Below, piece after piece: positions 25,951-46,027 of a stretch of 64,000 bases of DNA. Each line of letters opens with the position of its first letter. Position 1 is the stretch's first letter. The stretch is from Escherichia coli phage Shin27. Under the pieces are notes generated by a model that was not told the origin of the DNA, did not search any database, and saw only the letters and a program-made list of their open reading frames with translations. The translations under genes and the position numbers were made by a program. The stretch lies in the sequence record LC788709.1; one strand, 5' to 3'.

Positions 25951-25975
25951 ACAATCTCCTTCTTTAAAAATGTAT

Positions 25976-26004: not shown

Positions 26005-26033
26005 ATATTTATAAATTAAACAGAGGAACGATT

Positions 26034-27300: not shown

Positions 27301-27413
27301 GTTAGCGCTAATTACCAATTCTCGAAATCTCATAAGATTACACATGAAGGTGTGCCCAGAGGTTACCTAGATGAGAATGAGTCTCATTACCGCCCCGGTA
27401 CTTAGCAAGCTAA

Positions 27414-27457
27414 TAGTCACACTATGTGATGATAACATAGTGTGACTATTTTATTTT
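27414..27457 (+). terminator. Rho-independent terminator ending the small-membrane-protein operon
   Basis: A perfect 13-bp stem, TAGTCACACTATG/CATAGTGTGACTA, is followed by TTTTATTTTT. It lies tail-to-tail with dmp. Confidence 0.8.
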
Positions 27458-27463
27458 TAATTG

Positions 27464-28198
27464 TTAGGCGACTTTTAATTTATCAATGAATTGTTGCGGG
27501 CTGCAACTATATTCTGCGCGTTCTTCCTCGGTCATACCTTCCCAACACATTTTTAAACGGTCGGCTAGGAATTGATAATCATTATCATCATCTAATGATT
27601 CATCAATAAAGGTTTCACCGATCAATGTTACGCCGATTGATAGGATATCATTAACGGCTTGAGCGTCCAGCGTTTTAAATCCAGCACTTGCCGCCGCCGA
27701 TAATACGCCTTTATGATCATCAATCATCGTAAAATCAGCGTTCGGATATAACTGTTTAAACAGTTCAAAGTAATAGCTTTTGTATACAGCGTCTTTACTA
27801 TGATATATTTCGCTAACCTTATCCGCTTCAAAGTATTTGTGTAATGTATCGCGAGAGAATACGCGGATATTGCTATTTCCGCGCCCTCGCAAGCCTTGTT
27901 TACGCAAATAAAAGTAATCGCTTTTAGACATAAGGCGCGCGGTACAAATAATATTTAAAGTATTTGCATCATTCATACATTGGCGCATATATTCAACCAA
28001 TGGCAATAAAGAATCCTGCATAATTAAATCATGTTTACAGGCTTCGCGTGAATACTTATTTAAATTTAAATTCCCGTTATCATCAAAGCAAGGCGCTACA
28101 CGGTGGAAAGAATTAATGATAGTTCCGTCTAAGTCCCAAATCATAACGCGGGAAATATGCGGGAAAGCGCGGGCAATATTCAAGGTTACTTGATTCAT
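27464..28198 (-). CDS. dmp: 5'-deoxyribonucleotidase (T5 Dmp-like, HAD family)
   Basis: 244-aa ORF with the HAD motif I (IWDLDGTIINS). It sits in the pre-early position next to A1. Confidence 0.8.
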   Translation of the reverse strand: MNQVTLNIARAFPHISRVMIWDLDGTIINSFHRVAPCFDDNGNLNLNKYSREACKHDLIMQDSLLPLVEYMRQCMNDANTLNIICTARLMSKSDYFYLRKQGLRGRGNSNIRVFSRDTLHKYFEADKVSEIYHSKDAVYKSYYFELFKQLYPNADFTMIDDHKGVLSAAASAGFKTLDAQAVNDILSIGVTLIGETFIDESLDDDNDYQFLADRLKMCWEGMTEEERAEYSCSPQQFIDKLKVA

Positions 28199-28285
28199 TT
28201 GTTACATTCTCCATTTAAGGGATTTAGGTTAATTCAATCTTGCCAGCTAATTATATTGGATTAGCTGGCAATGTTCAATTAACTA

Positions 28286-28678
28286 TTAATTAGTGAGGCC
28301 ATACGCTAGCGCGTCACCAATAAAGCTAATATCTTCACCATGTACGCTAGAACGAATCCCCGCGCAAGTGTAAACCATCGCGCTAGCTTCTGGATTGCAG
28401 ACCGGACACGGCTTAACAACTGCAAACGCTAGACCGGATTTAAGCGCATCAATAATAATTGTTTGCACTGTCAAAGTATCAGCGTAAACGCCTTTTGCTT
28501 TCGTATGGCTTGCCACTTTGCCGGTATCATAAGCAAAGGTAGTAACCTGCAAAGCGTCGTTATAATTCAGCAAATCAAAATTAACTTGCCCCGCCTCGAC
28601 GTGATAACGTTCACCATTAGAATAAACTAGAACGATGGAAGAAGTAGCACGATCAAAAGGAATGTTTTGGTTTTTCAT
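28286..28678 (-). CDS. hypothetical pre-early protein
   Basis: 130-aa ORF flanked by GC hairpins. No motif was recognised. Confidence 0.55.
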   Translation of the reverse strand: MKNQNIPFDRATSSIVLVYSNGERYHVEAGQVNFDLLNYNDALQVTTFAYDTGKVASHTKAKGVYADTLTVQTIIIDALKSGLAFAVVKPCPVCNPEASAMVYTCAGIRSSVHGEDISFIGDALAYGLTN

Positions 28679-28710
28679 GTTTATGACTCCAGATTATTTA
28701 ATTACGGGAT

Positions 28711-28989
28711 TTATTGAAAAAATACATTTAAAGATAAATCAGTTTTACGAAAATATGTTTCGTCGCCGTCTTTCCTTTCTTGATTAAGGTAATCGCCTGT
28801 CATTACCTGAATATGATCTTTTTCGAAAAAGATCATATTTTCGCCAATATTACTATCCCATACGGCATACATTCCCGCGTACATTCCACGGGTAACTAAA
28901 TAAACGCAACTATCAAAAGACATTTCAGACCATGCAATATCTTCTAAACAATTGCTATCAGGGATAGATATATTAATTTTACTAGCCAT
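28711..28989 (-). CDS. hypothetical pre-early protein
   Basis: 92-aa ORF between A1 and the 130-aa ORF. Confidence 0.5.
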   Translation of the reverse strand: MASKINISIPDSNCLEDIAWSEMSFDSCVYLVTRGMYAGMYAVWDSNIGENMIFFEKDHIQVMTGDYLNQERKDGDETYFRKTDLSLNVFFQ

Positions 28990-29041
28990 TTAATAAACCT
29001 TTTATTAATGGCGGTATATTTCAACCGCCGATTAAATTTAA

Positions 29042-30706
29042 TTATGCAAAGAATTTACCGTTTTTGAAATCAATCAAAGTACGTTGCCCGTTTGCATAGG
29101 TAATTAAATGCGTTTGCGTCCAGCTTGACGCGCCCACGTTGTAGCCCATATCAAGGGAACCAGCAACGCCAGCGGTATAAACGCCGCCGTAAATGCTAGC
29201 CGTGTGAGTGTGACCAGTGTTAAGGCGTCCCAACTTTTTAAACTGCTTAGGATTGCCCCGACTGCCGTTAATGCCATTGTGACCATGTACGCCGCATTCA
29301 ATGCCAGCGATTTTAAAGGACTGGTCAGTAGTCAAAAAAATGGCGTTAAATTCGCATCCTGCAACGTTTCTAAGCGCATAATCTAACACGTTAAAGGTAT
29401 CATCCTTTTCAGCAATAGCGGCGTAAATCGCAGCGTTTAGACGGTGATACAGTTCCGCGTTTGCGGGATCATCTTTAATGTTTGCGTTACGATCATCTAA
29501 CCAGCGGGATAATGCTAAATCATGGTTAGATTCCACAATGATTGTTTGACTAAAATCACGTTCCATAGATTCTAATACGCGTCCAGTATCGATAAGATCA
29601 TCAATAACTTTATCACGTCCGGCGGCGTATTGTTTCGCAAGGAATACACCACTAGCGCGGTTATGATGGTTACGCGATGTAAAATCATGCACGTCATGAA
29701 TAAATTGATATTTCGGTTTAAGAATATCAAGCAAGCTGTTTTCACTAGCCCATGAAGCGACGGCGCAATCATCATCTAATTTTTCGGCGTGAATATCGCC
29801 ATATTGCAAGCCTAGAACATGATCGGACGTTTCAAAACATCCGGTAGGCATAGCGCAAACATTCAAATCATAGAACATTCCGCTTTCATCCATTGTTTCA
29901 ATCTGGCGAGCATAAAATTCGCCGTCGTCGTCGAACTCTACCAGCAAAGCGCCATAATTATGTAAAGCCTCAGCTTTTTGACCTGCTTTCTGCTGAATGT
30001 AGTTTTTAAGCGTAGCCGTTCCGGTTGAATACATACGGCACACTACTTCACCTTTTAACGCTGGCACACTTTCAGCGGTAATTTTAGCGTGACCAATTGC
30101 CAGACCTTCAATATTTAAAGCCGTGGCGGTTTCTGCGAATCCTGAAAGCGGGTAATCTGCCGTTGGTAAAACGTTAATTTCAGCCATGAAAGCAAAGCGG
30201 CGGTTATTTAAAAATACGTTTTTATCACAAACATATTTATCAAATGCGGGATCGTATTTAATACCGTTTGCCCCTTCCCCGTTCTGAAATCCGTTTTTGT
30301 TGTAAATGAATTTGCTAACAAGTAATTCAGCGCCGCAATATTCAGCGAATTTTTCCAGACTTGCTAAAAAGTTTTTATGCGGGAAAGTATTATTTTGAAT
30401 CGACGTTAGAATAAAACGGCGACCGGACTTAACTTCCCATTGCTCAACGGTGCTAGAAACAATTCCCGCCGCCTCTGGGCGATCATCGTTTTTAATCGCC
30501 TTTTCGGCTTTTGCCGCTTTCGGTTTCGCTGGTTTATTTGCTTCCAGCCAGTCACAAATTGCGGTCGAATGTTTCGGCGTACCATAAACAGCTTTTGAAA
30601 TATCGTCGCAAACTTCCAATTTAGTAGCGCGTAAACGCTTACCGTAGAAGTTAAAATCTGCGGCCATTTTCAAAATTTGAGCTTGTTTTTCTGCGGAAAT
30701 ATTCAT
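29042..30706 (-). CDS. A1: pre-early protein A1 (metallophosphoesterase/Mre11-like fold)
   Basis: 554-aa ORF with calcineurin-like motifs in order: GDIHAE, IHDVHD, ESNHD, GVHGHNG, GHTHT. Size and position match T5 A1. Confidence 0.85.
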   Translation of the reverse strand: MNISAEKQAQILKMAADFNFYGKRLRATKLEVCDDISKAVYGTPKHSTAICDWLEANKPAKPKAAKAEKAIKNDDRPEAAGIVSSTVEQWEVKSGRRFILTSIQNNTFPHKNFLASLEKFAEYCGAELLVSKFIYNKNGFQNGEGANGIKYDPAFDKYVCDKNVFLNNRRFAFMAEINVLPTADYPLSGFAETATALNIEGLAIGHAKITAESVPALKGEVVCRMYSTGTATLKNYIQQKAGQKAEALHNYGALLVEFDDDGEFYARQIETMDESGMFYDLNVCAMPTGCFETSDHVLGLQYGDIHAEKLDDDCAVASWASENSLLDILKPKYQFIHDVHDFTSRNHHNRASGVFLAKQYAAGRDKVIDDLIDTGRVLESMERDFSQTIIVESNHDLALSRWLDDRNANIKDDPANAELYHRLNAAIYAAIAEKDDTFNVLDYALRNVAGCEFNAIFLTTDQSFKIAGIECGVHGHNGINGSRGNPKQFKKLGRLNTGHTHTASIYGGVYTAGVAGSLDMGYNVGASSWTQTHLITYANGQRTLIDFKNGKFFA

Positions 30707-30814
30707 AACTAAATCAACTCCTATAAAGGGATAAATATTAATACTGGCAATATTGCCAAATATAACGCCTTGCCTGAAGTGAGGACAATTTAAAAGGCGT
30801 TATAATTTGCAATA

Positions 30815-31060
30815 TTATTCTAGAATTGGCATAAGACTAGAACTAAAACCGCAACTAATAGCCAGCGTTAAAAATATAATCGCTAGATATTTTTGTTTAT
30901 TAGCTTGACGTTTAAACATATCAGCGGCATAAGCTGAATTAATGCCGATAATAGAGATTATATATTTGCCGTAATTAAATATAAATATAGCGGCAACTAT
31001 AAATAAACCTAAAATAAACGCTTCACTAGGGAAGAAAATCATTTTAATAACTCCGGTCAA
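30815..31060 (-). CDS. small membrane protein
   Basis: 81-aa ORF with two or three hydrophobic segments, located between A2 and A1. Confidence 0.45.
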   Translation of the reverse strand: MTGVIKMIFFPSEAFILGLFIVAAIFIFNYGKYIISIIGINSAYAADMFKRQANKQKYLAIIFLTLAISCGFSSSLMPILE

Positions 31061-31100
31061 AGGGAAATTATAGCGGGGAATATTCCCCGCTAATTAGAAT

Positions 31101-31517
31101 TTATTCACCTGCGGCCTGTTTTACTTCCTCCGCTACGCCTAACAATTGCGCTACGGCGTCCAGCGTTTCCAGTTTAGCACTTTCAAGGCTTGCCAGATCG
31201 TCGGCATCTTTTACGATACCTGAATCAATGGCGTGTTTAGCGATGACGCGCACATAGTGAGCTTTACGAATTGAGCTACCGCCGCCAACTTTGCGAGGTT
31301 TATCGCTTTTCTGATAGGCTTTTGCGCTTGTCAGTTTAGAACGTACAGACACCGGACTAGCAGCACCAACGGCGGCGGCAATTTCTTTCAGGCCGTCACT
31401 GTTAGCAAATTCACTTCCGCTTTTAGCGACCATTTCAGAATACATAGAAACAGCTTTTTCGGTGTTTTCTTCGTTCCAAGAGAATTTTGCGGTTTTTTCG
31501 GTTTTAACGTTAGACAT
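31101..31517 (-). CDS. A2: pre-early protein A2-like (probable DNA-binding)
   Basis: 138-aa ORF immediately upstream of A1 in the transcription direction. Assignment rests on recalled T5 order and size only. Confidence 0.6.
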   Translation of the reverse strand: MSNVKTEKTAKFSWNEENTEKAVSMYSEMVAKSGSEFANSDGLKEIAAAVGAASPVSVRSKLTSAKAYQKSDKPRKVGGGSSIRKAHYVRVIAKHAIDSGIVKDADDLASLESAKLETLDAVAQLLGVAEEVKQAAGE

Positions 31518-31805
31518 AATTTAATACTCCATTCAATTATTAATTAAGGGATTATGATTAACTAAATGTTAATCGCTATATATTCTATTAGCTAGAATAT
31601 ATATAACGGAAACATTTTATTTTTATTTCCAGTTTCAAGCGGTTTATTAATTCCCGAATATATTTATATTCTCACCTTACCCGGCTTGCCAGAGAATTAA
31701 TAAGGCAACATTGTATTTATACGCTGTTTATTATTCCGTTCACGCTAGGAATATTTCGAGTTATCTTTATTGCCTAACTAAGCATGATATGTAAGGCGCA
31801 TTAAT

Positions 31806-32057
31806 TTATGCGATAGCTTGCCATTTATCATCTTTCTGAATGATTTTTACAACGTCGCCAGATTTAACACGGACGTTATAAATAGGCTTGCCGTGGTTAC
31901 TGCGTTCCGTTTCCGCATAGACCGCTTCAATCTTATCAAAGGGATCAAGCGCCGCACCTTTAATACGTTCAGCTTTTCCAGTTAATTCATCCGTTTTAGT
32001 AACGAAAGGAATAAAAACGGATTGACCTACTTTCGGTGCGGTGATAACGTTTTGCAT
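31806..32057 (-). CDS. hypothetical pre-early protein
   Basis: 83-aa ORF with GGAG-type SD context (CCGGAGTATTAAAAATG on the coding strand). Confidence 0.5.
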   Translation of the reverse strand: MQNVITAPKVGQSVFIPFVTKTDELTGKAERIKGAALDPFDKIEAVYAETERSNHGKPIYNVRVKSGDVVKIIQKDDKWQAIA

Positions 32058-32191
32058 TTTTAATACTCCGGTTTATTGGGGGATTATTCCACAATAGCGC
32101 CTCGATACTTTGAAACGCTATTAGATTATAATCCGCTAGGAGTTAGCCTAAACATTACCGTTTTTCCAAATTGTTAAAGAGCAGTTACTAC

Positions 32192-32489
32192 GGGGAACAT
32201 CTTAAAACCTATCGGCTAGCGTGTCAATCGTTTTTTAAACTTTTTTCGATTTGATGGGAGTTATATAAATCAATCATTATATTACGCCACACCATTTCCA
32301 GCCCTTGTTGCTTGCCTTTCTTGTATTGCTTGAATCTGTATTTTACAGATCGTTGCGCTACTGTCAACAAATTTTTTGTTCTGCTATCAAGCGACTTGAT
32401 AGGCTTGCCAGTGATCAAAAGCGTTTGTTTCATATCGTCGATTCCTTATAATATCTAAGTTTACCGCCGATAGGCTTTAAGATGTTCCC
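32192..32489. repeat. 24/25-bp inverted repeat pair flanking a 69-aa ORF
   Basis: GGGGAACATCTTAAAACCTATCGGC (32192-32216) versus GCCGATAGGCTTTAAGATGTTCCC (32466-32489), with one mismatch. Confidence 0.8.
32224..32433 (-). CDS. small basic protein flanked by 24-bp inverted repeats
   Basis: 69-aa Lys/Arg-rich ORF (RSVKYRFKQYKKGKQQ). The inverted repeats lie at 32192-32216 and 32466-32489. Confidence 0.4.
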   Translation of the reverse strand: MKQTLLITGKPIKSLDSRTKNLLTVAQRSVKYRFKQYKKGKQQGLEMVWRNIMIDLYNSHQIEKSLKND

Positions 32490-32840
32490 TAATTTTTAAA
32501 GAGCATGGCAGGGTTTTGAAAGGTCAAACAGACTGTCAATCGCTGTTATCCCCGCCGTGTAGTTCGTCATTGCCGCCCTACGTGATAAATAATAGGAGAA
32601 TACCGAGAAGGGCGCAAGCGTATTTTTGTAAAGAAACGTAAAGAAAACCACTACTCGCAAACGTCCAGCGGCGCATTAAATTTAATGAAACGGGCGCGCG
32701 AATAACACCAAAACAACCATTTTAGCAAGTAATTTTTTTCATTTATATTTGCTTTGCCATACTTGACAAAATCTAAAATCCTCGTGGTGAGGTTTTCTCG
32801 GTGTATCCCTTATGATTGCCTATCCTTTCCTTTGAGGCGC

Positions 32841-32867
32841 TTAGAATGCGTTACAGAGCGTTTTAGA
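32841..32867 (+). repeat. 27-bp perfect direct repeat, copy 1
   Basis: TTAGAATGCGTTACAGAGCGTTTTAGA is also present at 37084-37110. Confidence 0.85.
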
Positions 32868-33246
32868 CCCTGTTAATAACTTATACAAAAAGCAAAAATG
32901 AAATTTAATGAGTTATCCACTTGATTTTTCAAAAAAGTATTTTCTGCTGTTATTTTTCATTGACAAATAAGTTTAGACGTGCATTTATTGGTTAGCAGAC
33001 TAATAATCGCTAGGAGGATAATCACGCTGGTGGATTGTAACAGCCGAAACAGTTAGCGGACTATTAATACTTTAAAAACCTATTAGCCAACTAACTATTT
33101 CATAATATATAATATACACATAAATTAATGAGAAATAATAACTATGAGAAACTATCGGGCTAAGTGAGAACCACTATCATTTAGGTTATGCACAAAGCTA
33201 TCCACAGCACAAAATAACTTGACGCAATAGGCGACGTTTTGGCGAC

Positions 33247-33255
33247 TTATCCACA
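33247..33255 (+). promoter_or_regulatory. DnaA box (perfect TTATCCACA)
   Basis: Exact 9-mer. Near-matches are CTATCCACA at 33198-33206 and TTATCCACT at 32913-32921. Confidence 0.6.
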
Positions 33256-33275
33256 GACTTATATACAGGTTATCC

Positions 33276-33295
33276 TACTGTATAAATATACAGGG
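33276..33295. promoter_or_regulatory. LexA (SOS) box-like palindrome
   Basis: TACTGTATAAATATACAGGG has the CTGT-N8-ACAG core and is AT-rich, adjacent to DnaA boxes. Confidence 0.55.
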
Positions 33296-33543
33296 TAGAA
33301 TGGTAGCAGTAACAACCGCAATCAAATTTAAGCGGCCTAGAACGCGCTACACGGCGTTTTCTCACTGCTACCCTTATTATAATAAAGCCTTGTGTACGCT
33401 TACAGAGAGCTAGAAATAGAAAACGCGCGATTATCATAAAAACGGGCAGTAGGCAAGGAATAAAAAACCTTTTCTTTTTTTCTTGCCCCTAGCGAACAAT
33501 TATCTATATCATTCACTCACCGATTAACGAGGGAGACAAAGAA

Positions 33544-34545
33544 ATGTCTACTGTAAGAATTGCAGTACCAGCAAACGCAACTATTATTAAAGGTAGTTTG
33601 CGCAACCTGCTAGATGGTAGTAGTGCGGCAAGTATTCAGCACACCGCCGCAATGGTTGAAAAAATTCACGAGGATATTTTAGATAATAATGATACTCATT
33701 ATTCAGTCGATGATTTCACGCTATTACTAGACCAGACAAGGGCGCTAGTAATTTTCAACCGTGATTATCACATTTTCCGTAATAGTCAGGGAACTGATAT
33801 TGATTTTATCATTGTTGGTTATAGTGAGTCTCATAGTGGTTACATTGCGCGATTATATAACGTGCAAGAAAAAGAGCAGGTAACAGCAACAAAAGTAAAT
33901 AATATCAGATTGGATAGTGTCGGATCGTTATTAAATAGTATCTGGCGTGAATTATCATCCAGTTATAAAGGTGCTGATAGTGACGCAATCGAAACAACTG
34001 GCGTATTGTGCTTTGAACGCGCTAGCGGTAACATGTTGATCCCTAACGATTATTTAGAGTATGGGAATGAATCAAACGTTGCAAACGCTGGATTTACACT
34101 TTTACCGCTTGACAATGTAGCAAAACAGGCTGTAAACTCTCAAACTTCAAGCGCAAATGCGCAAACTACTGAAAATAAAGGAAATATTATGTCTAAAGTA
34201 TCTTCTATCGTTGCCGCTAATAAATCCGCCGTTGTTAACGCTGCTAAACTGGAAGCGGGTAAAATTGCACTGACTCAAATCACAAAAGTAGCGGCGAAAA
34301 AAGCGCCGTTTATGATTAAAGGTTATATCGATACGCCGATCGGTCGCGTAGTGATCGCTAACCTGTTAAGCGTAGCGGTTGACCAGTACGCCCCGACTAA
34401 TGCGAAAGCGAAAGCGGTAGCAGGCGCGGCAATGGAAGCGGCAATGCTGGAAATGGTACAGAGTTTCAATATTGCGGAAATGATCGATGAAATGGTAAAA
34501 GGTATTGACATTTCTACTTTTACCACTAACACCGAAAGTGAGTAG
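33544..34545 (+). CDS. hypothetical pre-early protein (largest gene of plus-strand cassette)
   Basis: 333-aa ORF with a GAGGGAG SD 8 nt upstream. The C-terminal third is an Ala/Lys-rich amphipathic region. A hairpin follows the stop. Confidence 0.65.
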   Translation: MSTVRIAVPANATIIKGSLRNLLDGSSAASIQHTAAMVEKIHEDILDNNDTHYSVDDFTLLLDQTRALVIFNRDYHIFRNSQGTDIDFIIVGYSESHSGYIARLYNVQEKEQVTATKVNNIRLDSVGSLLNSIWRELSSSYKGADSDAIETTGVLCFERASGNMLIPNDYLEYGNESNVANAGFTLLPLDNVAKQAVNSQTSSANAQTTENKGNIMSKVSSIVAANKSAVVNAAKLEAGKIALTQITKVAAKKAPFMIKGYIDTPIGRVVIANLLSVAVDQYAPTNAKAKAVAGAAMEAAMLEMVQSFNIAEMIDEMVKGIDISTFTTNTESE

Positions 34546-34612
34546 TAATAACTAGCGGGGATTATTTCCCCGCGTTACTATTTCCCTGTTAATTGTTAGG
34601 AGACTACTTATT

Positions 34613-34921
34613 ATGCAACTGAATCAAATCATGTTGACGCAATTAGCCGAAAAAATGCCGAATAGCCCCCATGTTAATTATTCGGACGATCAAAGCAATA
34701 TTCCTATATGGGAAAAACAAGGCCGTCCCTTTTTATGGGAACATGTAGAAAGCGCGAATAATTATCATGCTTTCTTTGATCGTGGTTATGGCTGGCTATG
34801 TATTTTTGTAGACGAAACTTTGCTGGATTATGGAATGGATGAAATAGTCCGTGATGACGTAATTTTCTTAAATAAAGGATTTTACAGTGTAGCAAATTCT
34901 CTTTATTTCCCTGCTAATTAA
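34613..34921 (+). CDS. hypothetical protein
   Basis: 102-aa ORF with a TAGGAG SD. Confidence 0.55.
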   Translation: MQLNQIMLTQLAEKMPNSPHVNYSDDQSNIPIWEKQGRPFLWEHVESANNYHAFFDRGYGWLCIFVDETLLDYGMDEIVRDDVIFLNKGFYSVANSLYFPAN

Positions 34922-34934
34922 TAGGAGGCTAGTT

Positions 34935-35429
34935 ATGTCAGAAGAAAAATATGGCTTTTCACTAGAAAGTGTGAATGAAGCTAAACACGATATGATAGTT
35001 TTAGTTGATTGTCATACTGGCTATTGCGGGGAAGGCTGGACGGAGGAACATTTTGTTCCCGCTGGCTGTGATCTGGACGCTTTCGCAAACGAACACGCAT
35101 ATGATAATGCTTCTCGTTTCGGTAGTGATGGGGAAGAAGATGAAGAAACAGGGGAATGGATTGAAAATGATAATGTTTATGCGAGTATTTATCATTATCA
35201 ATTGAGTAAATCCGGTATTTATGTAAATGGCGGCGATCCTATTAATACCGTTATGAAACTAATTATTAAACACGGTGGCGCGGAAATAATTGGTAACAAG
35301 GCGTTATTATATGCAAATCGATTAAAACAGCTTGTTTATATTCCTGATAATTCCCGTTGGGATGAATATGCCGTTTTACAGAAAGAACTAAAACGCTGTT
35401 TCGGTGTGGAAGCATTAGAAATAGTCTAA
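34935..35429 (+). CDS. hypothetical acidic protein
   Basis: 164-aa ORF with a TAGGAGG SD and an acidic tract (GSDGEEDEETGEWIENDN). A terminator follows. Confidence 0.6.
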   Translation: MSEEKYGFSLESVNEAKHDMIVLVDCHTGYCGEGWTEEHFVPAGCDLDAFANEHAYDNASRFGSDGEEDEETGEWIENDNVYASIYHYQLSKSGIYVNGGDPINTVMKLIIKHGGAEIIGNKALLYANRLKQLVYIPDNSRWDEYAVLQKELKRCFGVEALEIV

Positions 35430-35443
35430 TGTAAAGTTTTGTA

Positions 35444-35472
35444 AAGGTCGCCTATTATGGCGACCTTTTTTG
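35444..35472 (+). terminator. Rho-independent terminator
   Basis: AAGGTCGCC-TATTAT-GGCGACCTT followed by TTTTGTT. Confidence 0.75.
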
Positions 35473-35479
35473 TTATAAT
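35471..35479 (+). promoter_or_regulatory. possible extended -10 promoter
   Basis: TGTTATAAT lies immediately after the terminator at 35444-35472. No good -35 is present. Confidence 0.3.
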
Positions 35480-35536
35480 GCCTTTACACCGAAACGGTGG
35501 GTTGAAAATTTTCCCTGATTTCTAGGAGGCGTTAAA

Positions 35537-35764
35537 ATGGTACATTCATCATCTTCTGCAATTTTTAACGGTATGGAATGGGTATCCGTTCCCGCTATTG
35601 TCAGCGTTATGGTTTCTGAGTTCGGCATAGGTAAAACTTATGTTACCATTCAGGGGCTTTACGACAATGACAAGATTGACCAGCAAACCGCCGGATTTTT
35701 GCTGGATGAATTGAAAGCTAACCATTGCACTAAAAAGCAAGCGGCAAAAATTGTTTTAATGTAA
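35537..35764 (+). CDS. hypothetical protein
   Basis: 75-aa ORF with a TAGGAGG SD. Confidence 0.5.
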   Translation: MVHSSSSAIFNGMEWVSVPAIVSVMVSEFGIGKTYVTIQGLYDNDKIDQQTAGFLLDELKANHCTKKQAAKIVLM

Positions 35765-35810
35765 TTAATAAAGGGGGTATATTATCCCCTAATTTCTAGG
35801 AGCTAATAAA

Positions 35811-35960
35811 ATGGTTATTTTTCGATCTATTCTAGCTAGTATCTTGGGCGCTATTTTATCACTGTTTGTAATAGCTTTCGGCGTTAACGTGGTTATTATT
35901 GGAGCAGGTATCGCTGGGTTTTCTTACTTGTTAGGCTGTATGACTGGTAAAGGGGAATAA
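35811..35960 (+). CDS. small double-pass membrane protein (49 aa)
   Basis: MVIFRSILASILGAILSLFVIAFGVNVVIIGAGIAGFSYLLGC... with a TAGGAG SD. It is below the ORF-track cutoff. Confidence 0.4.
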   Translation: MVIFRSILASILGAILSLFVIAFGVNVVIIGAGIAGFSYLLGCMTGKGE

Positions 35961-35962
35961 AA

Positions 35963-36175
35963 ATGTTAAAGAATGTTTCCCTTGCCCGTTCTAAAGGTTT
36001 TAAGCTGGTGGATGTTAACACGTTCGAGCGTCCAGATTGTAAAATCGAATATGTAGCACGCAACAAAAACGCTTTCCGTGTTACTGAAAAGAAATTTGAC
36101 AAGCGCGGAAATTTGGTAGCCGAAACGGTTAAACACTTTGCTACTTTTTACGCTGCGTTTCGTGGGGTATTATGA
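35963..36175 (+). CDS. hypothetical basic protein
   Basis: 70-aa ORF that starts 2 nt after the preceding stop. Confidence 0.5.
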   Translation: MLKNVSLARSKGFKLVDVNTFERPDCKIEYVARNKNAFRVTEKKFDKRGNLVAETVKHFATFYAAFRGVL

Positions 36176-36273
36176 GATCCTTATATATTGCTCTAGCGTT
36201 TGCTACCGTTGGCGTTGTTTGCTCATTCGCTGCATTTGTTCTAAAAATGTACCTGATATTTTCCCAGCTTTAG
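36172..36273 (+). CDS. small membrane peptide (33 aa)
   Basis: MRSLYIALAFATVGVVCSFAAFVL... It has an ATGA start/stop overlap with the upstream ORF. Confidence 0.3.
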   Translation: MRSLYIALAFATVGVVCSFAAFVLKMYLIFSQL

Positions 36274-36284
36274 GAGCTTGACAA

Positions 36285-36632
36285 ATGGTTATTTATGAGG
36301 GTAATCGCTTTGTTACTAATTGCCGTCCGGCATTATTAGCAAACTATTTAAATCAGCTTTCCCCTGTTTATAAAGGCGTGGTTAACATCTATGAAGGCAA
36401 AGCGCACTATAGAATTAATGCCGTTGTCGCTCGCGAGCTTGCCTTTCAGTTTCTTACTTTTAACTCATGCGATATTCAGGTTATGGGTGAGTCTTTGATT
36501 GCAGAAAATGAAGATGAATTTATTAACATTTTCCGCAAAGTATGTACAGAGCGCCTGATTATGAAAGGCGCATATATTCAATCAACCGCTGATAGTATTG
36601 AAACAGCGTTTCGAAAAATTGTAAATGAATAG
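36285..36632 (+). CDS. hypothetical protein
   Basis: 115-aa ORF with a TAGGAG SD. Confidence 0.55.
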   Translation: MVIYEGNRFVTNCRPALLANYLNQLSPVYKGVVNIYEGKAHYRINAVVARELAFQFLTFNSCDIQVMGESLIAENEDEFINIFRKVCTERLIMKGAYIQSTADSIETAFRKIVNE

Positions 36633-36755
36633 CTGGTGGCGTAAAACGCAATCCCATAAATCTAATAATACCGCTGGGAAACATTCCCAGCGTTTACGAT
36701 TTGGGAACGGCTTCACAATGTTAATAATAATCATTCTCATTCTAGGAGCAATGGC

Positions 36756-36995
36756 ATGGCTGTAAGAATTTTACGATATGTAGAACGTAAAGAAACCGAT
36801 ATTATGCAGCATCATTTAACTGATGGGCAATACGCGCAATTTTTAGAAATGCAGAAAAGCGGAGCTAGTACGGCGGCGCTAGGGGCGTGGATCAATTCAG
36901 TTTCAACGTGTACGCATTTTGATTCATACGGGTATACGCCAGCCGAAACCGTCCAGATCTTTGACGACTACGAGAAGGAATACATAGCAGACTAA
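36756..36995 (+). CDS. hypothetical protein (last gene of cassette)
   Basis: 79-aa ORF with a TAGGAG SD. An AATCATTCTCATT operator-like half-site lies at 36729-36741 and a terminator at 37001-37031. Confidence 0.5.
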   Translation: MAVRILRYVERKETDIMQHHLTDGQYAQFLEMQKSGASTAALGAWINSVSTCTHFDSYGYTPAETVQIFDDYEKEYIAD

Positions 36996-37000
36996 TAATA

Positions 37001-37031
37001 GCGGGGCGCAACTATCGGCCCCGCCTTTTCT
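37001..37031 (+). terminator. Rho-independent terminator at the end of the plus-strand cassette
   Basis: GCGGGGC-N10-GCCCCGC followed by CTTTTCT. Confidence 0.65.
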
Positions 37032-37083
37032 GCCTGCAAACAAATTTCCCCTTATTAAAATACCTCCTCCAAAAATAAACGCG

Positions 37084-37110
37084 TTAGAATGCGTTACAGA
37101 GCGTTTTAGA
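37084..37110 (+). repeat. 27-bp perfect direct repeat, copy 2
   Basis: Identical to 32841-32867. It lies 31 nt upstream of the near-consensus LexA box. Confidence 0.85.
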
Positions 37111-37140
37111 GCTATATTAGAGTTATTCACTACGTAGGAA

Positions 37141-37160
37141 TACTGTATATTTATACAGTA
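37141..37160. promoter_or_regulatory. LexA (SOS) box, near-consensus
   Basis: TACTGTATATTTATACAGTA differs at one position from the E. coli consensus TACTGTATATATATACAGTA. Confidence 0.65.
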
Positions 37161-37168
37161 GAATAACC

Positions 37169-37177
37169 TGTGGATAA
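37169..37177 (-). promoter_or_regulatory. DnaA box (perfect, reverse orientation)
   Basis: The plus strand reads TGTGGATAA. An 8/9 box, AGTGGATAA, lies at 37181-37189. Confidence 0.6.
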
Positions 37178-37241
37178 GTCAGTGGATAACGCCTCAAAAT
37201 CGCTAGGATTTTGTCAAGTCAAATCGTGCTGTTAATAAACC

Positions 37242-37250
37242 TGTGGATAA
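37242..37250 (-). promoter_or_regulatory. DnaA box (perfect, reverse orientation)
   Basis: The plus strand reads TGTGGATAA. Confidence 0.6.
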
Positions 37251-37283
37251 CTTAAATAGCAGTGTTTCTCACTTCGCTTTCTA

Positions 37284-37413
37284 AATGCGAATCATTCTCA
37301 TTATGCGACTCATTCGTATTCAATTCTGTAAATGATAATCATTCCCATTCCACTTTCTAAATGCGAGTAGTTCTCATTCGCATTCAACTTCTCAAATGCG
37401 AATCAATCTCATT
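37284..37413. repeat. five copies of a 19-bp imperfect palindrome (AATGCGAAT-N-ATTCTCATT family)
   Basis: Copies lie at 37284-37302, 37303-37320 (degenerate), 37331-37349, 37360-37378 and 37395-37413. A lone half-site lies at 36729-36741. Confidence 0.75.
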
Positions 37414-37432
37414 ATCAGTTGCATTTCGGCAG

Positions 37433-37463
37433 GCAGGGCATTTTCTATTTGCCCTGCGCTTTT
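37433..37463 (+). terminator. terminator-like hairpin inside the repeat region
   Basis: GCAGGGC-N11-GCCCTGC followed by GCTTTT. Confidence 0.4.
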
Positions 37464-38065
37464 GTGCAAATCCGACATCTGCCCCCACGGATTACGTGCC
37501 AGCGTGCATGTGCGAATCCGACAATTTTTGGTAGTGTGCAAATCCGATGGGAAATATTTTTTATATGTGCGAATCCGACAATGAATTTTCCTAAAAACTC
37601 CAGCAATCCGCAACTGCGATGCAATCCAGCTGGATTTACTAGAGTATGCGCAAATCCGACATGAGTTTATTTGTGCAAAACCGACAAGATTTTTGTGACT
37701 TCGATGAGAGGGTGTGTGATTGTGAGGGTTTGGGGAGAAGTGCGAATCCGATGAGATTTTGGGAGGAACTACGGAAGGAGCAGCGGTGATGGTGCTTTAG
37801 CACCGGTTTGCTGCATTTTTGAGGATAATGCGGGATGTTTTGGCTAGAATTGAGATTAGGGGAGATAAAGCGAAATTTTATTAGCAAAATGGGGCAAAAT
37901 CGCTTGACAAGTGAAAATTCCTGTGGCTCTAAAAAACTCAGGCAAATATGGGCCTTCGGCCCGAAATAATGCTGCTATTTTCAGTGTTCCTAAAAACTTT
38001 GGAGACTCCTATCAATGTGCAAATCCGACCATAAATTTCTAGAAACACAGTGTGCAAATCCGATA
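37464..38065 (+). repeat. iteron-like array: nine same-orientation copies of GTGC(A/G)AATCCGA(C/T)N
   Basis: Copies start at 37464, 37510, 37536, 37567, 37648 (variant), 37673 (variant), 37740, 38017 and 38052. Spacing is irregular and no ORF is supported. Confidence 0.85.
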
Positions 38066-38224
38066 GCAATTTCCAGAAATGTGTTTTGGAAAAATGTCTC
38101 CTAGAAATAACCGCCCTCCCTATAACCGCCCTGTATTAAACCGCCTATTGCTGGAGTTTCTAGGAACATGAAAACCGCCTGAGTTGGCGAGAGTTTTCCT
38201 AGAAACTTAGGAGTCTACTAGAAA
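38036..38224. repeat. six TTCTAGAA-type palindromes interleaved with four (T/A)AACCGCC(C)T direct repeats
   Basis: The TAG-centred sites lie at 38036-45, 38071-80 (degenerate), 38098-107, 38157-66, 38195-205 and 38214-24. The AACCGCC repeats lie at 38108, 38123, 38137 and 38171. Confidence 0.75.
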
Positions 38225-38492
38225 GTGTTGTGCTATCCTAGCAGATGAGCGGCAACAGGTGTATCATCTTGAACATTAATTTATCTATTCAACAGTATTA
38301 GTTTTTATATAAGTATAAGATCCCCAGGGGATTGTGAGAGATGCTCCACCCCTGGGATACGAATTGCGTGAGATGGTACAAAACTTCTGAAGATTTCCCT
38401 AGCCCTCCGACAAGCTACGGGGGAAATAGAAGTTTCCCATCCACCATCCGTATCCGGGTGGATCTCTTTATTCTATGTTATTTCATAGAGTT

Positions 38493-38521
38493 ATTATAAC
38501 ATGCAGAAATCATAACGTCAA
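38493..38521 (-). promoter_or_regulatory. sigma70-type promoter reading into ORF-free hairpin-rich DNA
   Basis: Coding strand reads TTGACG, 17 nt, TATAAT, just downstream of the stop of the 296-aa gene. Confidence 0.5.
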
Positions 38522-38528
38522 GTAGAGT

Positions 38529-39419
38529 TTATTCATCGAACATGAGATTTCCTTTCATCCCCATCTCCGCATACTCCATGAGTTCTCCTAGGGATCTCAC
38601 AGGGTAATCTACTTTACTGAAGTTATCATAGATCTTACATGAACTCTCGTACAACTCGTTAGGTATCTGCAATTTGTTATCAGTTAGCTTCTCATAACGT
38701 GTAGAAGATTTTGTACCTTCAAACAGAACTGCAATAACTGCGGCGATTTGTTTGGTAAGATCATCTGCTCCTAGAATTATTCTATTAATAGCAATCGTTA
38801 CTTCATGCTTAGGTTTCACAGGTGGAAGGATAGGCTTGAGATCCTTAGGTAAAGGTTCTGTTCCTAGGAATCCTTCTTTTGTGCGGAACCAATAATTATC
38901 TAGATCAGATATTGTCTTAGACTTATTCCATATAGTGAAGCAAGGTTTATTTCCTTCACGATCTCTGTATTCACGAACTGGAAGATAATGATCAGGGAAT
39001 GAGTTGAGTGCATCATGCATTGGTGAGCCTGTCTTTTTAAATGACAAACCGTACAACTCATTATAATTCATAACTTCATCTTCATAAACATGGAAATCTT
39101 TATATGCTGGAAGATTAAACCATTCCTGAAGTGAATGAACTGCAAAACGTTGTGCCCAAGCATGCATCACAAGAACTCTGTACTCTTTTACTTCATCTTT
39201 TGGAGAAGTACCTCTAACTGTTCTAGCTGACCGAATACAGAACATCTCAACAACACGTCTCTCGTTTAAAGAAAGCTCAGAGTAACAACGTTCATGGCAA
39301 CCTTCTAGCATTTCTAGAAGTTCACGTAGTTTCTCTACATCGACCGGTGGAAAAGGTCTCTCTTCCACCGCGAATTTACCAACTACACCTTTCGGCTTTC
39401 TATTACTATAAAATCCCAT
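38529..39419 (-). CDS. hypothetical early protein
   Basis: 296-aa ORF, the last gene of the leftward early transcription unit. Confidence 0.6.
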   Translation of the reverse strand: MGFYSNRKPKGVVGKFAVEERPFPPVDVEKLRELLEMLEGCHERCYSELSLNERRVVEMFCIRSARTVRGTSPKDEVKEYRVLVMHAWAQRFAVHSLQEWFNLPAYKDFHVYEDEVMNYNELYGLSFKKTGSPMHDALNSFPDHYLPVREYRDREGNKPCFTIWNKSKTISDLDNYWFRTKEGFLGTEPLPKDLKPILPPVKPKHEVTIAINRIILGADDLTKQIAAVIAVLFEGTKSSTRYEKLTDNKLQIPNELYESSCKIYDNFSKVDYPVRSLGELMEYAEMGMKGNLMFDE

Positions 39420-45436: not shown

Positions 45437-46027
45437 TCAAACATTGATATCTCCCCTCAATACCGCTGCCACATCTTCATCGATTTGGAGTATTTCACCA
45501 GTAGTGCAGTTAACCACTTTATCATAGCTTGTGAACTTGCCAGACACAATATCCTCTAGAGGAATAGGAGTCTTGCTCATCTCAAAAGAGACGTTGATAT
45601 AACGTGGGTCACGCACAGAATTGGTGTGCACATGTCCGTGAATGTTTAGCTTACCACGAAGTTCTGCTTCGTGCAATGGACAATGTGACAGCCAAAACTT
45701 CTTGCCACCACCTGTTTGCTTACCTAGAGCCTGAATATCATCATAAACGTCTACAAGATCTTTAATACGCAGACCCTGACGTTCAGCATCGTGGTTGCCC
45801 ATGATTAATTGGTTAGGCACATTGTAGATAACCGACTTCAATTTAGCCAACCCTTCACGCCCCACGGCAATATCTCCTAGCAATACAAGTTTTGTACGCT
45901 TGCCAATGTGCTTGGACAAAGTATCTAGGATATATTCATCGTGCTCTTTCCTGTTCTTAAACCACGGACGGAAGCGAAGAGTTCCAGGATGGTCTAGGTG
46001 CAAATCCGACCAGAATTTAACTTTCAT
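45437..46027 (-). CDS. metallophosphoesterase
   Basis: 196-aa ORF with motifs SDLHLDH, LLGDI, GNHD and HGHVH. Confidence 0.75.
   Translation of the reverse strand: MKVKFWSDLHLDHPGTLRFRPWFKNRKEHDEYILDTLSKHIGKRTKLVLLGDIAVGREGLAKLKSVIYNVPNQLIMGNHDAERQGLRIKDLVDVYDDIQALGKQTGGGKKFWLSHCPLHEAELRGKLNIHGHVHTNSVRDPRYINVSFEMSKTPIPLEDIVSGKFTSYDKVVNCTTGEILQIDEDVAAVLRGDINV

What the first reader, a model, noticed from the sequence alone, without database searches (positions are those of the whole stretch)
37284..37413. Array of five 19-bp palindromic operator-like sites
Seen: the sites are AATGCGAATCATTCTCATT (37284), a degenerate copy (37303), AATGATAATCATTCCCATT (37331), AATGCGAGTAGTTCTCATT (37360) and AATGCGAATCAATCTCATT (37395). 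Each has an AATG(C/A)GAAT arm mirrored as ATTC(T/C)CATT. Two are preceded by CTTTCTAA. A lone AATCATTCTCATT lies at 36729-36741 just before the RBS of the last cassette gene, and ATGAGAA half-sites recur at 33126-33155. Inference: these are binding sites for a dimeric DNA-binding protein (phage A2-like or host). Five in a row could build a nucleoprotein block at the injection-stop region.
Basis: seen in the sequence. Interest (0 to 1): 0.55.

Follow-up and report, generated by a model that had tools for sequence, protein, structure and literature searches.

The report
Fur-box array in T5-like injection-stop region
The five palindromes are real, lie in the DNA injection-stop region of a T5-like phage, are conserved across the phage family, and closely match binding sites of the host iron regulator Fur, which gives a testable host factor for an old question about T5 DNA entry.

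Summary
Four good copies and one degenerate copy of a 19-bp palindrome sit at 37284-37413 (the degenerate copy is in register at 37302, not 37303).

The window is a T5-like (Epseptimavirus-like) phage. The array lies in the untranslated "Repeat Region 3" / injection stop signal (iss) of the terminal repeat. This corresponds to the DRC/DRE/pal repeats already described in T5, whose function is called unknown.

New here: the palindrome (AATGAGAAT-C-ATTCTCATT) is by sequence a Fur box.
- A matrix built only from phage sites ranks known Fur operators first in 253 kb of E. coli DNA (fecI, fecA, fhuA, fhuF, exbB, ent/fep, ryhB, feoA).
- A matrix built only from E. coli operators puts its 13 best hits in the 64-kb window inside the terminal repeat.
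- The array scores 11-18.6 bits; genuine operators score 10-21.6.

The array follows a near-consensus LexA box and DnaA boxes. This layout is conserved in Pantoea, Proteus and Aeromonas phages, but the array is replaced in a Vibrio phage.

Best reading: pre-existing host Fur dimers load onto the boundary of the first-step-transfer DNA. A role in transfer arrest is only inferred. Binding by phage protein A2 is the main rival. No binding experiment exists.

The parts
37284..37302 (.). Palindrome 1, AATGCGAATCATTCTCATT (Fur-box-like, single-dimer 19-bp register)
   Evidence: E. coli Fur matrix gives 13.6 and 14.5 bits at 37281 and 37287.
37302..37320 (.). Palindrome 2, degenerate, TATGCGACTCATTCGTATT
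   Evidence: 5 mismatches to consensus. E. coli Fur matrix gives 8.7 bits at 37299. Conserved as TATGCRACTCATTCGYATT in the closest relatives.
37331..37349 (.). Palindrome 3, AATGATAATCATTCCCATT, containing the canonical Fur core AATGATAATCATT
   Evidence: 18.6 bits at 37328 with the E. coli-only matrix.
37360..37378 (.). Palindrome 4, AATGCGAGTAGTTCTCATT (weak)
   Evidence: 8.9 bits at 37363.
37395..37413 (.). Palindrome 5, AATGCGAATCAATCTCATT
   Evidence: 11.0 and 15.1 bits at 37392 and 37398.
36723..36741 (.). Lone Fur-box-like site AATAATAATCATTCTCATT, just upstream of the RBS of the last rightward pre-early ORF (36756-36995)
   Evidence: 19.9 bits. Identical over 19 of 19 bases to the E. 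coli ryhB promoter site found.
37141..37160 (.). LexA (SOS) box TACTGTATATTTATACAGTA, 1 mismatch to the 20-bp consensus. Part of the same conserved module.
   Evidence: 2 matches in the window against 0.01 expected. Conserved in relatives.
37169..37250 (-). DnaA boxes: TGTGGATAA 37169-37177, AGTGGATAA 37181-37189, TGTTAATAA 37230-37238, TGTGGATAA 37242-37250. This is the IRD'-spacer-IRC' element of T5.
   Evidence: Read. Described for T5-like phages by Davison.
37433..37459 (.). Hairpin GCAGGGCA...TGCCCTGC followed by GCGC. Equivalent of the T5 site of the major 7.9% single-strand interruption.
   Evidence: T5 nick annotated at AY543070 9748-9749, at the homologous GCGC.
37464..38064 (+). Nine direct repeats GTGCRAATCCGAY (DRD of T5), downstream neighbour of the array
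27370..27394 (.). Related palindrome GATGAGAATGAGTCTCATTACCGCC, about 17 nt from the inferred left physical end of the genome
   Evidence: (18.6 bits).
27568..27592 (.). Two overlapping strong Fur-matrix hits (GGAATTGATAATCATTATCATCATC) inside the dmp-like gene
   Evidence: 21.6 and 18.1 bits. Conserved in T5 at 228-252.
33685..33703 (.). Fur-matrix hit AATAATGATACTCATTATT inside ORF 33544-34545
   Evidence: 21.0 bits.
33126..33295 (.). Mirror-image module in Repeat Region 2: ATGAGAA/GTGAGAA half-sites, DnaA boxes, and a second LexA-like box at 33276-33295
27353..37929 (.). Inferred terminal repeat (first-step-transfer DNA plus about 0.5 kb). Fur-matrix hits are enriched throughout.
   Evidence: Boundaries. 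Enrichment.

Best explanation
The array is a cluster of binding sites for the host ferric uptake regulator Fur. Each 19-bp palindrome corresponds to one Fur-dimer site: a 7-1-7 core TGAGAAT-N-ATTCTCA with conserved AA/TT at positions 8 and 9 on each side.

The array forms the right-hand part of a conserved non-coding module at the end of the first-step-transfer DNA of T5-like phages. The order is: terminator, LexA box, two pairs of DnaA boxes, Fur-box array, hairpin with nick site, GTGCRAATCCGAC repeats.

Proposed mechanism (inferred). Fur, LexA and DnaA are abundant proteins already present in the uninfected cell. They can therefore load onto this module as soon as it enters, without new protein synthesis. 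Metal-bound Fur dimers would occupy the 5-12 sites and could polymerise between them. This would build a large, stiff nucleoprotein complex exactly where DNA transfer pauses.

Shown here: sequence identity with Fur operators, conservation of the array, and its position. Inferred: that Fur actually binds in vivo. More weakly inferred: that the complex contributes to the pause, to anchoring or to insulation of the first-step DNA.
For: 1. Phage to host. A palindromic matrix built from 10 phage sites only, scanned over 205 kb of E. coli K-12, puts 13 of its top 16 hits in about 3 kb of known Fur-regulated intergenic DNA (fecI, fecA, fhuA, fhuF, exbB, fepB-entC, oppA, fepD-entS, fepA-fes). In a held-out 48-kb window the top five hits of the 87-site matrix (four of the top five with the 10-site matrix) are the ryhB and feoA promoter regions.
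2. Host to phage. A matrix built only from 11 E. coli promoters places its 13 best hits in the 64-kb window inside 27373-37413.
3. Score range. The six array hits of 11 bits or more score 11.0-18.6 bits; the two weak palindromes (37302, 37360) reach only 8.7 and 8.9. Leave-one-out scores of genuine operators are 10.0-21.6, median 14.1.
4. Matrix similarity. Frequency matrices of 87 unique phage sites and 13 E. coli operators correlate at r=0.92 (0 of 5000 column permutations). The main deviation (G for T at position 4 on each side) is at the least constrained position of E. coli operators.
5. Information profile. Conservation peaks at AAT..AAT.ATT..ATT with 6-bp periodicity and drops in the flanks. 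Overlapping sites offset by exactly 6 bp occur in most relatives. That spacing is the published signature of Fur site clusters (PMC2189734).
6. Statistics. The array has 6 hits against 0.05 expected. The terminal repeat without the array has 9 against 1.6. The flanking 27 kb and 26.5 kb are at expectation. Nine related genomes give 0.80 hits per kb inside the repeat against 0.14 per kb outside.
7. Conservation. 5-12 sites per phage in 30 non-redundant loci. The same module is present in Pantoea phage AAS21, Proteus phage Stubb and Aeromonas phage TS3, where flanking DNA is unalignable.
8. Context. The neighbouring motifs are consensus sites of two other host proteins, LexA and DnaA.
9. Position. 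Davison places the calculated shear point of first-step DNA (about 9618 in T5) within these repeats. The T5 array spans 9552-9722.
10. No terminal-repeat ORF has a Fur-family domain.
Against: - No binding data exist. Everything here is sequence inference.
- The array is not at a recognisable promoter. The sigma-70 scan finds 4 sites against 4.0 expected, none convincing. It is therefore not a classical Fur operator in function.
- In this window four of five left arms read AATGCGAAT, with C at position -5, where E. coli operators have A in 24 of 26 half-sites. Several sites are therefore only mid-range, and two are weak (8.7 and 8.9 bits).
- Vibrio phage Cody keeps the LexA boxes, DnaA boxes and the downstream repeats but has unrelated palindromic repeats at the array position. 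Vibrio Fur boxes are expected to be the same. Fur is thus not a universal requirement of the module.
- From general knowledge (not tested here), fur mutants of E. coli remain T5-sensitive, so Fur cannot be essential for infection.
- The spacer sequence between palindromes (CTTTCTAAATG) is also fairly conserved. The repeat unit may therefore carry more than a Fur site.
Confidence: 0.55

Rival explanations
1. The palindromes are operators of a phage-encoded dimeric DNA-binding protein. The obvious candidate is the pre-early protein A2 (31101-31517, minus strand), which is needed for second-step transfer. On this reading the resemblance to Fur boxes is coincidental, or serves to compete with Fur.
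For: - A2 is a dsDNA-binding dimer required for second-step transfer (Davison preprint).
- It is encoded in the same terminal repeat.
- It is conserved (37-43% identity) in Proteus, Vibrio and Aeromonas relatives, with a conserved helix SVRSKL..Y.K.
- Enrichment of the motif over the whole first-step DNA would also suit a pre-early regulator.
Against: - A phage protein would have to share Fur's specificity closely enough that a phage-only matrix retrieves E. coli Fur operators as top hits (r=0.92).
- Vibrio phage Cody has A2 (41% identical) but no such array. The GTGCAAATCCGAC repeats are conserved exactly there and drift in Aeromonas phage TS3, where A2 is most divergent. Those direct repeats are therefore the better A2 candidate.
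- The A2 model shows an N-terminal three-helix bundle with only weak Myb, homeodomain or IS-HTH resemblance and no Fur-like fold (low confidence).
Confidence: 0.2
2. Fur does bind, but the purpose is transcriptional rather than mechanical. The array would act as an iron-responsive roadblock or insulator. It would stop read-through from the rightward pre-early operon into DNA not yet transferred, and later stop read-through from the convergent early genes. Alternatively it would tune pre-early expression to the host iron state. This rival is nested within the Fur identification.
For: - The array sits between a terminator (about 37003-37030, read) and convergent minus-strand early genes starting at 38529.
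- Additional Fur-matrix hits lie within or just before pre-early genes (27568, 33685, 35103, 35163, 36723).
- 36723-36741 is identical to the ryhB operator and sits immediately upstream of a gene.
Against: - No promoter is predicted to overlap the array.
- Five to twelve sites are far more than a roadblock needs.
- The extra sites in the rightward operon are lineage-specific and absent from T5 between 6.2 and 9.2 kb.
Confidence: 0.2
3. The repeats act as DNA structure with no specific protein. Hairpins, cruciforms or intrinsic bends would jam or slow the DNA in the tail or envelope channel. This is the classical view of the iss.
For: - The single strand of 37270-37470 folds better than shuffles (-27.6 against -15.3 kcal/mol, z=-4.4).
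- The literature describes the iss as rich in repeats and palindromes thought to form secondary structures.
- The major nick site is 46 bp to the right of the array.
Against: - Most of the folding energy comes from the separate hairpin at 37433-37457 and from pairing between repeats, not from the 19-bp palindromes.
- Conservation is base-specific, in the Fur pattern AAT..AAT.ATT..ATT. It does not take the form of compensatory changes that preserve a stem.
- In vitro, T5 ejects its whole genome through FhuA (Davison preprint), so the DNA alone does not stop transfer.
Confidence: 0.08
4. The palindromes are recognition elements for genome-end formation or packaging, for example terminase or another end-binding protein.
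For: - A related palindrome lies about 17 nt from the left physical end in five independently deposited genomes and at 27370-27394 here.
- In Proteus phage Stubb the strongest site is 20-35 bp inside the predicted right boundary of the terminal repeat.
Against: - In T5 and eight other genomes the repeat ends about 500 bp beyond the array.
- T5 and Stubb keep only the right half of the terminal element.
- Small terminase subunits usually recognise direct repeats, which fits the neighbouring GTGCRAATCCGAC repeats better.
Confidence: 0.07

Closest known systems
E. coli Fur operators and Fur-binding-site clusters (for example ryhB, feoA, fecI, fhuA, fhuF, entC/fepB; Chen et al. 2007, PMC2189734)
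   Same: - Same 19-bp inverted repeat with a 7-1-7 core.
- Same conserved AA/TT at positions 8 and 9 on each side.
- Same 6-bp phasing of overlapping sites.
- Matrix correlation r=0.92, and each matrix retrieves the other's sites.
- One phage site (36723-36741) is identical to the ryhB operator.
   Different: - Not placed over a promoter.
- 5-12 sites spread over 130-330 bp, instead of 2-3 overlapping sites.
- G preferred over T at position 4 on each side, and frequent C at position 5.
- Located in a lytic phage's non-coding injection-stop region.
T5 injection stop signal, Repeat Region 3: repeats DRC 1-4, DRE1/2 and palindromes palE, G, H, I, J (Heusterspreute 1987; Wang 2005; Davison 2015 and 2020)
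   Same: This is the homologous element. It has the same position after the last pre-early gene and the same order of LexA-box palindrome, DnaA boxes, array, hairpin with nick site and DRD repeats. It aligns with T5 9552-9722.
   Different: The copy number and spacing differ from T5. The published descriptions accessible here give no binding protein and call the function impossible to guess. The Fur assignment is added here.
Davison's DnaA-box model of T5 injection stop (bioRxiv 10.1101/866236)
   Same: Both use a pre-existing host DNA-binding protein that captures the iss region as it enters. Both rest on sequence comparison of T5-like phages alone.
   Different: Davison's model concerns only the DnaA boxes to the left of the array. 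It treats the palindromes as possible restriction-like cleavage sites for A1/A2. Here the palindromes are assigned to Fur, and palD to LexA.
Phage-borne Fur boxes at promoters (stx1 of Shiga-toxin prophages; Calderwood and Mekalanos, in the reference list of PMC2189734)
   Same: A phage genome carries functional-looking sites for host Fur.
   Different: There a single operator controls one promoter in a temperate phage. Here a multi-site array with no promoter lies at a DNA-transfer boundary of a virulent phage.

Membership tests
Fur box / Fur operator | 19-bp inverted repeat matching the Fur consensus (7-1-7 core TGATAAT-N-ATTATCA; classical GATAATGATAATCATTATC) | tested here: met
   The phage consensus AATGAGAATCATTCTCATT compares with the E. 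coli consensus AATGATAATCATTATCATT derived here from 13 operators. Matrix r=0.92, with 0 of 5000 permutations reaching it.
Fur box / Fur operator | Scores within the range of experimentally supported operators under a matrix trained without the candidate sites | tested here: met
   The six array hits of 11 bits or more score 11.0-18.6 bits, against leave-one-out operator scores of 10.0-21.6 (median 14.1). Two of the five palindromes are weak, at 8.7 and 8.9 bits.
Fur box / Fur operator | A model of the candidate sites retrieves known Fur operators specifically | tested here: met
   13 of the top 16 hits in 205 kb of E. coli DNA. The ryhB and feoA promoters supply the top five hits of the 87-site matrix, and four of the top five with the 10-site matrix, in a held-out 48 kb.
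Fur box / Fur operator | Clustered sites overlapping at 6-bp (or 3-bp) offsets | tested here: met
   Centre-to-centre spacing of 6 bp occurs in most of the 30 phages. In this window only a weak overlapping partner exists, at 37401.
Fur box / Fur operator | Overlaps the -35/-10 region of an iron-regulated promoter | tested here: not met
   No promoter signal above background in 36900-38600 (4 found, 4.0 expected). The array lies between convergent transcription units.
Fur box / Fur operator | Metal-dependent binding of Fur shown by EMSA, footprinting or ChIP | not testable with these tools
   No experimental data were found in the searchable literature.
T5 iss Repeat Region 3 (DRC/DRE/pal repeats) | Untranslated region at the right end of the terminal repeat, after the last pre-early gene and left of the repeat boundary | tested here: met
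   The array at 37284-37413 follows ORF 36756-36995. The repeat ends at about 37929. The T5 iss is annotated at 9140-10149.
T5 iss Repeat Region 3 (DRC/DRE/pal repeats) | Collinear with T5: palD, DnaA-box pairs with a spacer, repeats, hairpin with nick site, DRD repeats | tested here: met
   Alignment of 30 loci including T5. T5 sequence.
Operator of phage protein A2 | Co-occurrence of the motif with A2 across the phage family | tested here: not met
   Vibrio phage Cody encodes A2 (41% identity) but lacks the array.
LexA (SOS) box (neighbouring element) | CTGT-N8-ACAG within the 20-bp consensus TACTGTATATATATACAGTA | tested here: met
   37141-37160 has 1 mismatch and 33276-33295 has 3, against 0.01 expected. 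The consensus was taken from general knowledge.

The most novel reading that the evidence does not exclude
The injection stop signal of T5-like phages is a host-state checkpoint. A single non-coding module collects consensus sites for three global host sensors: LexA (DNA damage), DnaA (replication and energy state) and Fur (iron state). Occupancy of these sites by pre-existing host proteins sets whether, and for how long, DNA transfer pauses after the first 8%. On this reading the long-sought host factor for the pause is a redundant trio, not one protein. That redundancy would explain why no single host mutant has revealed it.
Probability: 0.12. Interest if true: 0.85.

Novelty: new variant of a known kind. 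Interest (0 to 1): 0.62.

Why it matters
What stops T5 DNA after 8% has entered the cell has been an open question since the 1960s. The iss is known only as a tangle of repeats "whose function is impossible to guess", and a 2023 paper still notes that experimental studies of these sites are lacking.

Assigning the most repeated palindrome to Fur, and the adjacent palindrome to LexA, turns an anonymous repeat region into a short list of purified, well-understood host proteins with ready mutants, chelators and binding assays. If Fur binds, it would also be an unusual use of an iron regulator's operator: not to control a promoter, but to decorate the boundary of incoming viral DNA.

If Fur does not bind, the result still shows that the palindromes have a base-specific conservation pattern. 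It also shows that the downstream direct repeats track the conserved phage protein A2 better than the palindromes do.

Tried and rejected
- **Known RNA families.** The Rfam scan of 36800-38600 found nothing meaningful; the best E-value was 0.45, far below gathering scores.
- **Promoter or terminator reading of the array.** There is no excess of promoter-like sites.
- **Fur-like protein encoded by the phage.** No Pfam hit for a Fur family in 10 ORFs of the terminal repeat. PHROGs identifies dmp, A1 and A2 only.
- **A2 structure.**
  - There is no solved homologue.
  - The single-sequence AlphaFold model has pLDDT 61.
  - The Foldseek search of the PDB gives nothing below E=0.5, only weak Myb, homeodomain or IS-HTH hints.
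- This is inconclusive.
- **Zur box and ARG box as alternatives.** These were compared from memory only. The Zur box GAAATGTTATAWTATAACATTTC shares the outer AAATG/CATTT but differs in the inner five bases. The ARG box has a different half-site spacing. I rejected both informally and did not scan for them.
- **Source of the window.** The A1 protein is 100% identical to E. coli phage Wa28, but the iss region is only 95% identical to that record. The window is therefore a related mosaic Epseptimavirus-like phage, not Wa28 itself. The Wa28 record annotates nothing over this region.
- **Distant metagenomic A1 homologues** (35-47% identity, L051-L064). They show no Fur-site cluster. Their hosts and terminal-repeat boundaries are unknown, so this is uninformative.
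- **Literature.**
  - Three full-text searches and a term search inside the Davison preprint found no mention of Fur or LexA in connection with the T5 iss.
  - Davison 2015 (PMC4743489) is not held.
  - Heusterspreute 1987 and Wang 2005 were not looked up, so prior mention there cannot be excluded.

Full report
**1. What is there**

Four are clear copies of a 19-bp palindrome with consensus AATGAGAAT-C-ATTCTCATT. The fifth is degenerate and is in register at 37302, not 37303.

The lone copy before the last pre-early ORF is a full 19-mer, 36723-36741. The ATGAGAA half-sites near 33130-33170 are also present.

The pattern occurs 13 times in the window (up to 2 mismatches, both strands), against 0.30 expected.

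**2. Where it is**

The window is a T5-like phage of the Demerecviridae. The region is 93% identical to Salmonella Epseptimavirus phages and matches 517 phage records.

The array lies in the untranslated stretch between the last rightward pre-early gene (36756-36995) and the convergent early genes (from 38529). This is T5's Repeat Region 3, annotated in AY543070 as the injection stop signal, 9140-10149.

I located the terminal repeat at about 27353-37929. This rests on comparison with genomes deposited with both ends and on the genes dmp (27464-28198), A1 (29042-30706) and A2 (31101-31517).

Davison's preprint names the homologous T5 elements DRC 1-4, DRE1/2 and palE, G, H, I, J. It notes their conservation in 25 phages, places the calculated first-step shear point (about 9618) among them, and says their function is "impossible to guess". 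The array as a sequence feature is therefore already known.

**3. What the motif is**

The palindrome has the form of a Fur box. Its inner 15 bp, TGAGAAT-N-ATTCTCA, differ from the 7-1-7 Fur core TGATAAT-N-ATTATCA only at the symmetric position 4. I tested this identification in both directions, keeping training and test data separate.

(a) Phage to host.
- I built a matrix from 10 phage sites only and scanned 205 kb of E. coli K-12.
- 13 of the top 16 hits fell in about 3 kb of Fur-regulated intergenic DNA: fecI, fecA, fhuA, fhuF, exbB, fepB-entC, oppA, fepD-entS and fepA-fes.
- In a 48-kb window fetched afterwards, the top hits were the ryhB and feoA promoter regions: all of the top five with the 87-site matrix, four of five with the 10-site matrix.
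- The ryhB site is identical over 19 of 19 bases to window 36723-36741.

(b) Host to phage.
- I built a matrix from 11 E. coli promoters only, seeded with the classical consensus.
- All 13 of its best hits in the 64-kb window lie within 27373-37413.

(c) Score range. The six array hits of 11 bits or more score 11.0-18.6 bits, and two weaker hits score 8.7 and 8.9. Leave-one-out scores of the genuine operators are 10.0-21.6, median 14.1.

(d) Matrix similarity.
- The frequency matrices of 87 unique phage sites and 13 E. coli operators correlate at r=0.92. The best of 5000 column permutations reaches 0.67.
- The phage's preferred G at position 4 falls on the least constrained position of E. coli operators.
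- Its frequent C at position 5 does not: E. coli has A there in 24 of 26 half-sites. This is a real weakness for this window's left arms (AATGCGAAT).

(e) Information profile. Across 184 extended sites, conservation peaks at AAT..AAT.ATT..ATT and at the AA/TT of positions 8 and 9, then falls in the flanks. Chen et al. describe exactly this extent for the single-dimer E. coli model. They also describe Fur sites clustering at 6-bp offsets. Such 6-bp overlaps occur in most relatives.

**4. Statistics with composition control**

All comparisons use first-order Markov simulations of each segment.

| Segment | Threshold | Observed hits | Expected | Simulations reaching observed |
|---|---|---|---|---|
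| Array | 11 bits or more | 6 | 0.05 | 0 of 5000 |
| Terminal repeat without the array | 12 bits or more | 9 | 1.6 | 0 of 300 |
| 27 kb to the left | 12 bits or more | 2 | 2.0 | 63 of 100 |
| 26.5 kb to the right | 12 bits or more | 1 | 2.6 | 91 of 100 |

The enrichment therefore covers the first-step-transfer DNA as a whole. It recurs in nine related genomes: 0.80 hits per kb inside the repeat (array excluded) against 0.14 per kb outside.

**5. Conservation and context**

All Markadamsvirinae-type loci found through A1 that reach far enough upstream carry a dense cluster 4.5-9.5 kb upstream of A1 (L013 stops short of it). So do loci with only 67-69% A1 identity. There are 5-12 sites per phage, and copy number varies by insertions and deletions of repeat units.

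The order of elements is constant:
1. terminator
2. a near-perfect LexA box (37141-37160, one mismatch to the 20-bp consensus)
3. two pairs of DnaA boxes
4. the array
5. a hairpin ending in GCGC, which in T5 is the annotated 7.9% nick site
6. nine GTGCRAATCCGAY direct repeats

The same module is recognisable where the flanking DNA no longer aligns:
- Pantoea phage AAS21 has 9 sites.
- Proteus phage Stubb has 3 sites, one strong.
- Aeromonas phage TS3 has two LexA/DnaA clusters, each with 2-3 Fur-like sites including AATGATTATCATT.

A partial mirror copy exists in this window at 33126-33295.

Vibrio phage Cody keeps the LexA box, the DnaA boxes and exact GTGCAAATCCGAC repeats. At the array position, however, it has unrelated palindromic repeats.

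**6. Host Fur or phage A2?**

A2 is a dsDNA-binding dimer needed for second-step transfer. It is conserved at 37-43% identity in the distant relatives, so conservation of the motif alone does not exclude it.

Three observations favour Fur:
- The specificity is that of Fur to the point of mutual retrieval (section 3).
- The neighbouring motifs are host-protein sites.
- The array is lost in a phage that keeps A2. Meanwhile the direct repeats follow A2: exact in Cody, diverged in TS3 where A2 is most divergent.

The A2 model is of low confidence. It shows an N-terminal three-helix bundle with no significant structural match.

My estimates are:

| Claim | Probability |
|---|---|
| Fur binds these sites in vitro | about 0.8-0.85 |
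| Fur binding is the selected function | about 0.55 |
| A phage protein is the true ligand | about 0.2 |

**7. How it may work**

Shown: a conserved, multi-copy set of Fur-type sites lies at the boundary of the first-step DNA, next to LexA and DnaA sites.

Inferred: these three proteins pre-exist in the cell, so they can bind without protein synthesis. This matches the classical finding that the pause needs no new proteins. Fur is known to bind as dimers and to polymerise on DNA. Together the proteins could form a large complex at or just inside the entry point.

I cannot say from sequence whether that complex brakes transfer, anchors the DNA, blocks transcription from running into untransferred DNA, or reports iron status.

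Several points argue against an essential role:
- There is no promoter context.
- The array is replaced in the Vibrio phage.
- From general knowledge, fur mutants remain T5-sensitive.

Redundancy among the three host factors would reconcile these points, but that is speculation.

**8. Novelty**

The array is a known feature of T5. Fur boxes are a known kind of site. The combination is what is new: a promoter-less array of Fur-type sites, with a LexA box, in the injection stop signal of a virulent phage.

I did not find this combination in the searchable literature. Two recent papers still describe the region only as repeats, palindromes and DnaA boxes without functional data. Davison 2015 was not held, and I did not look up Heusterspreute 1987 or Wang 2005, so none of these older papers was checked.

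I class the finding as a new variant of a known kind. It is of moderate to high interest, because it makes an old open question directly testable.

Noticed in passing
window 37141-37160 and 33276-33295: There are two LexA (SOS) boxes. The first, TACTGTATATTTATACAGTA, is one mismatch from the 20-bp consensus. Each sits beside DnaA boxes. The pairing is conserved in Pantoea, Proteus, Aeromonas and Vibrio relatives. It is not mentioned in the Davison preprint, where this element is called palD.
   Followed up: partly
window 37464-38064 (also 45998-46010): Nine same-strand copies of GTGCRAATCCGAY (DRD repeats) occur; the pattern gives 12 matches in the whole window against 0.28 expected. They are exact in Vibrio phage Cody and diverged to GTACTAAAYCGAYA in Aeromonas phage TS3. 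They track the conserved phage protein A2 better than the palindromes do. They are a candidate binding site for A2 or terminase.
   Followed up: partly
window 27370-27394: GATGAGAATGAGTCTCATTACCGCC is a 2-mismatch copy of the array palindrome. It lies about 17 nt from the inferred left physical end of the genome (about 27353). The same element starts at about nt 17 in five genomes deposited from their physical end. T5 and Proteus phage Stubb keep only the right half.
   Followed up: partly
window 27353-37929 (sites at 27568, 33685, 34748, 35103, 35163, 36723): Fur-matrix hits are enriched over the whole terminal repeat, not only in the array. The window has 9 against 1.6 expected. Nine related genomes have 0.80 hits per kb inside the repeat against 0.14 per kb outside. 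Several hits lie inside coding sequence. The one in dmp is conserved in T5.
   Followed up: partly
L069 (Vibrio phage Cody NC_055849) about 10700-10900, reverse strand: At the position of the array this phage has different palindromic repeats (GGGATCACTAATATAGTGATCCC; GTAGGTCATGCTAAT twice). The LexA box, DnaA boxes and GTGCAAATCCGAC repeats are retained. The binding factor is unknown.
   Followed up: no
window 37433-37459: A hairpin GCAGGGCA...TGCCCTGC is followed by GCGC TTTT. The homologous GCGC in T5 is the annotated major single-strand interruption at 7.9% (AY543070 9748-9749). The nick site therefore lies 46 bp to the right of the last palindrome.
   Followed up: partly
window 37211-37238: The highly conserved spacer TTGTCAAGTCAAATCGTGCTGTTAATAA lies between the two DnaA-box pairs. 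It resembles a sigma-70 promoter (TTGTCA, 16 nt, TAATAA) pointing into the array. The scan tool did not call it.
   Followed up: no
window 24169-26300: A receptor-binding tail protein gene (593 aa) and a Cor-like superinfection-exclusion gene lie just outside the left end of the terminal repeat. The receptor type (FhuA, BtuB or FepA) was not determined, so no link between receptor and the Fur sites could be assessed.
   Followed up: no
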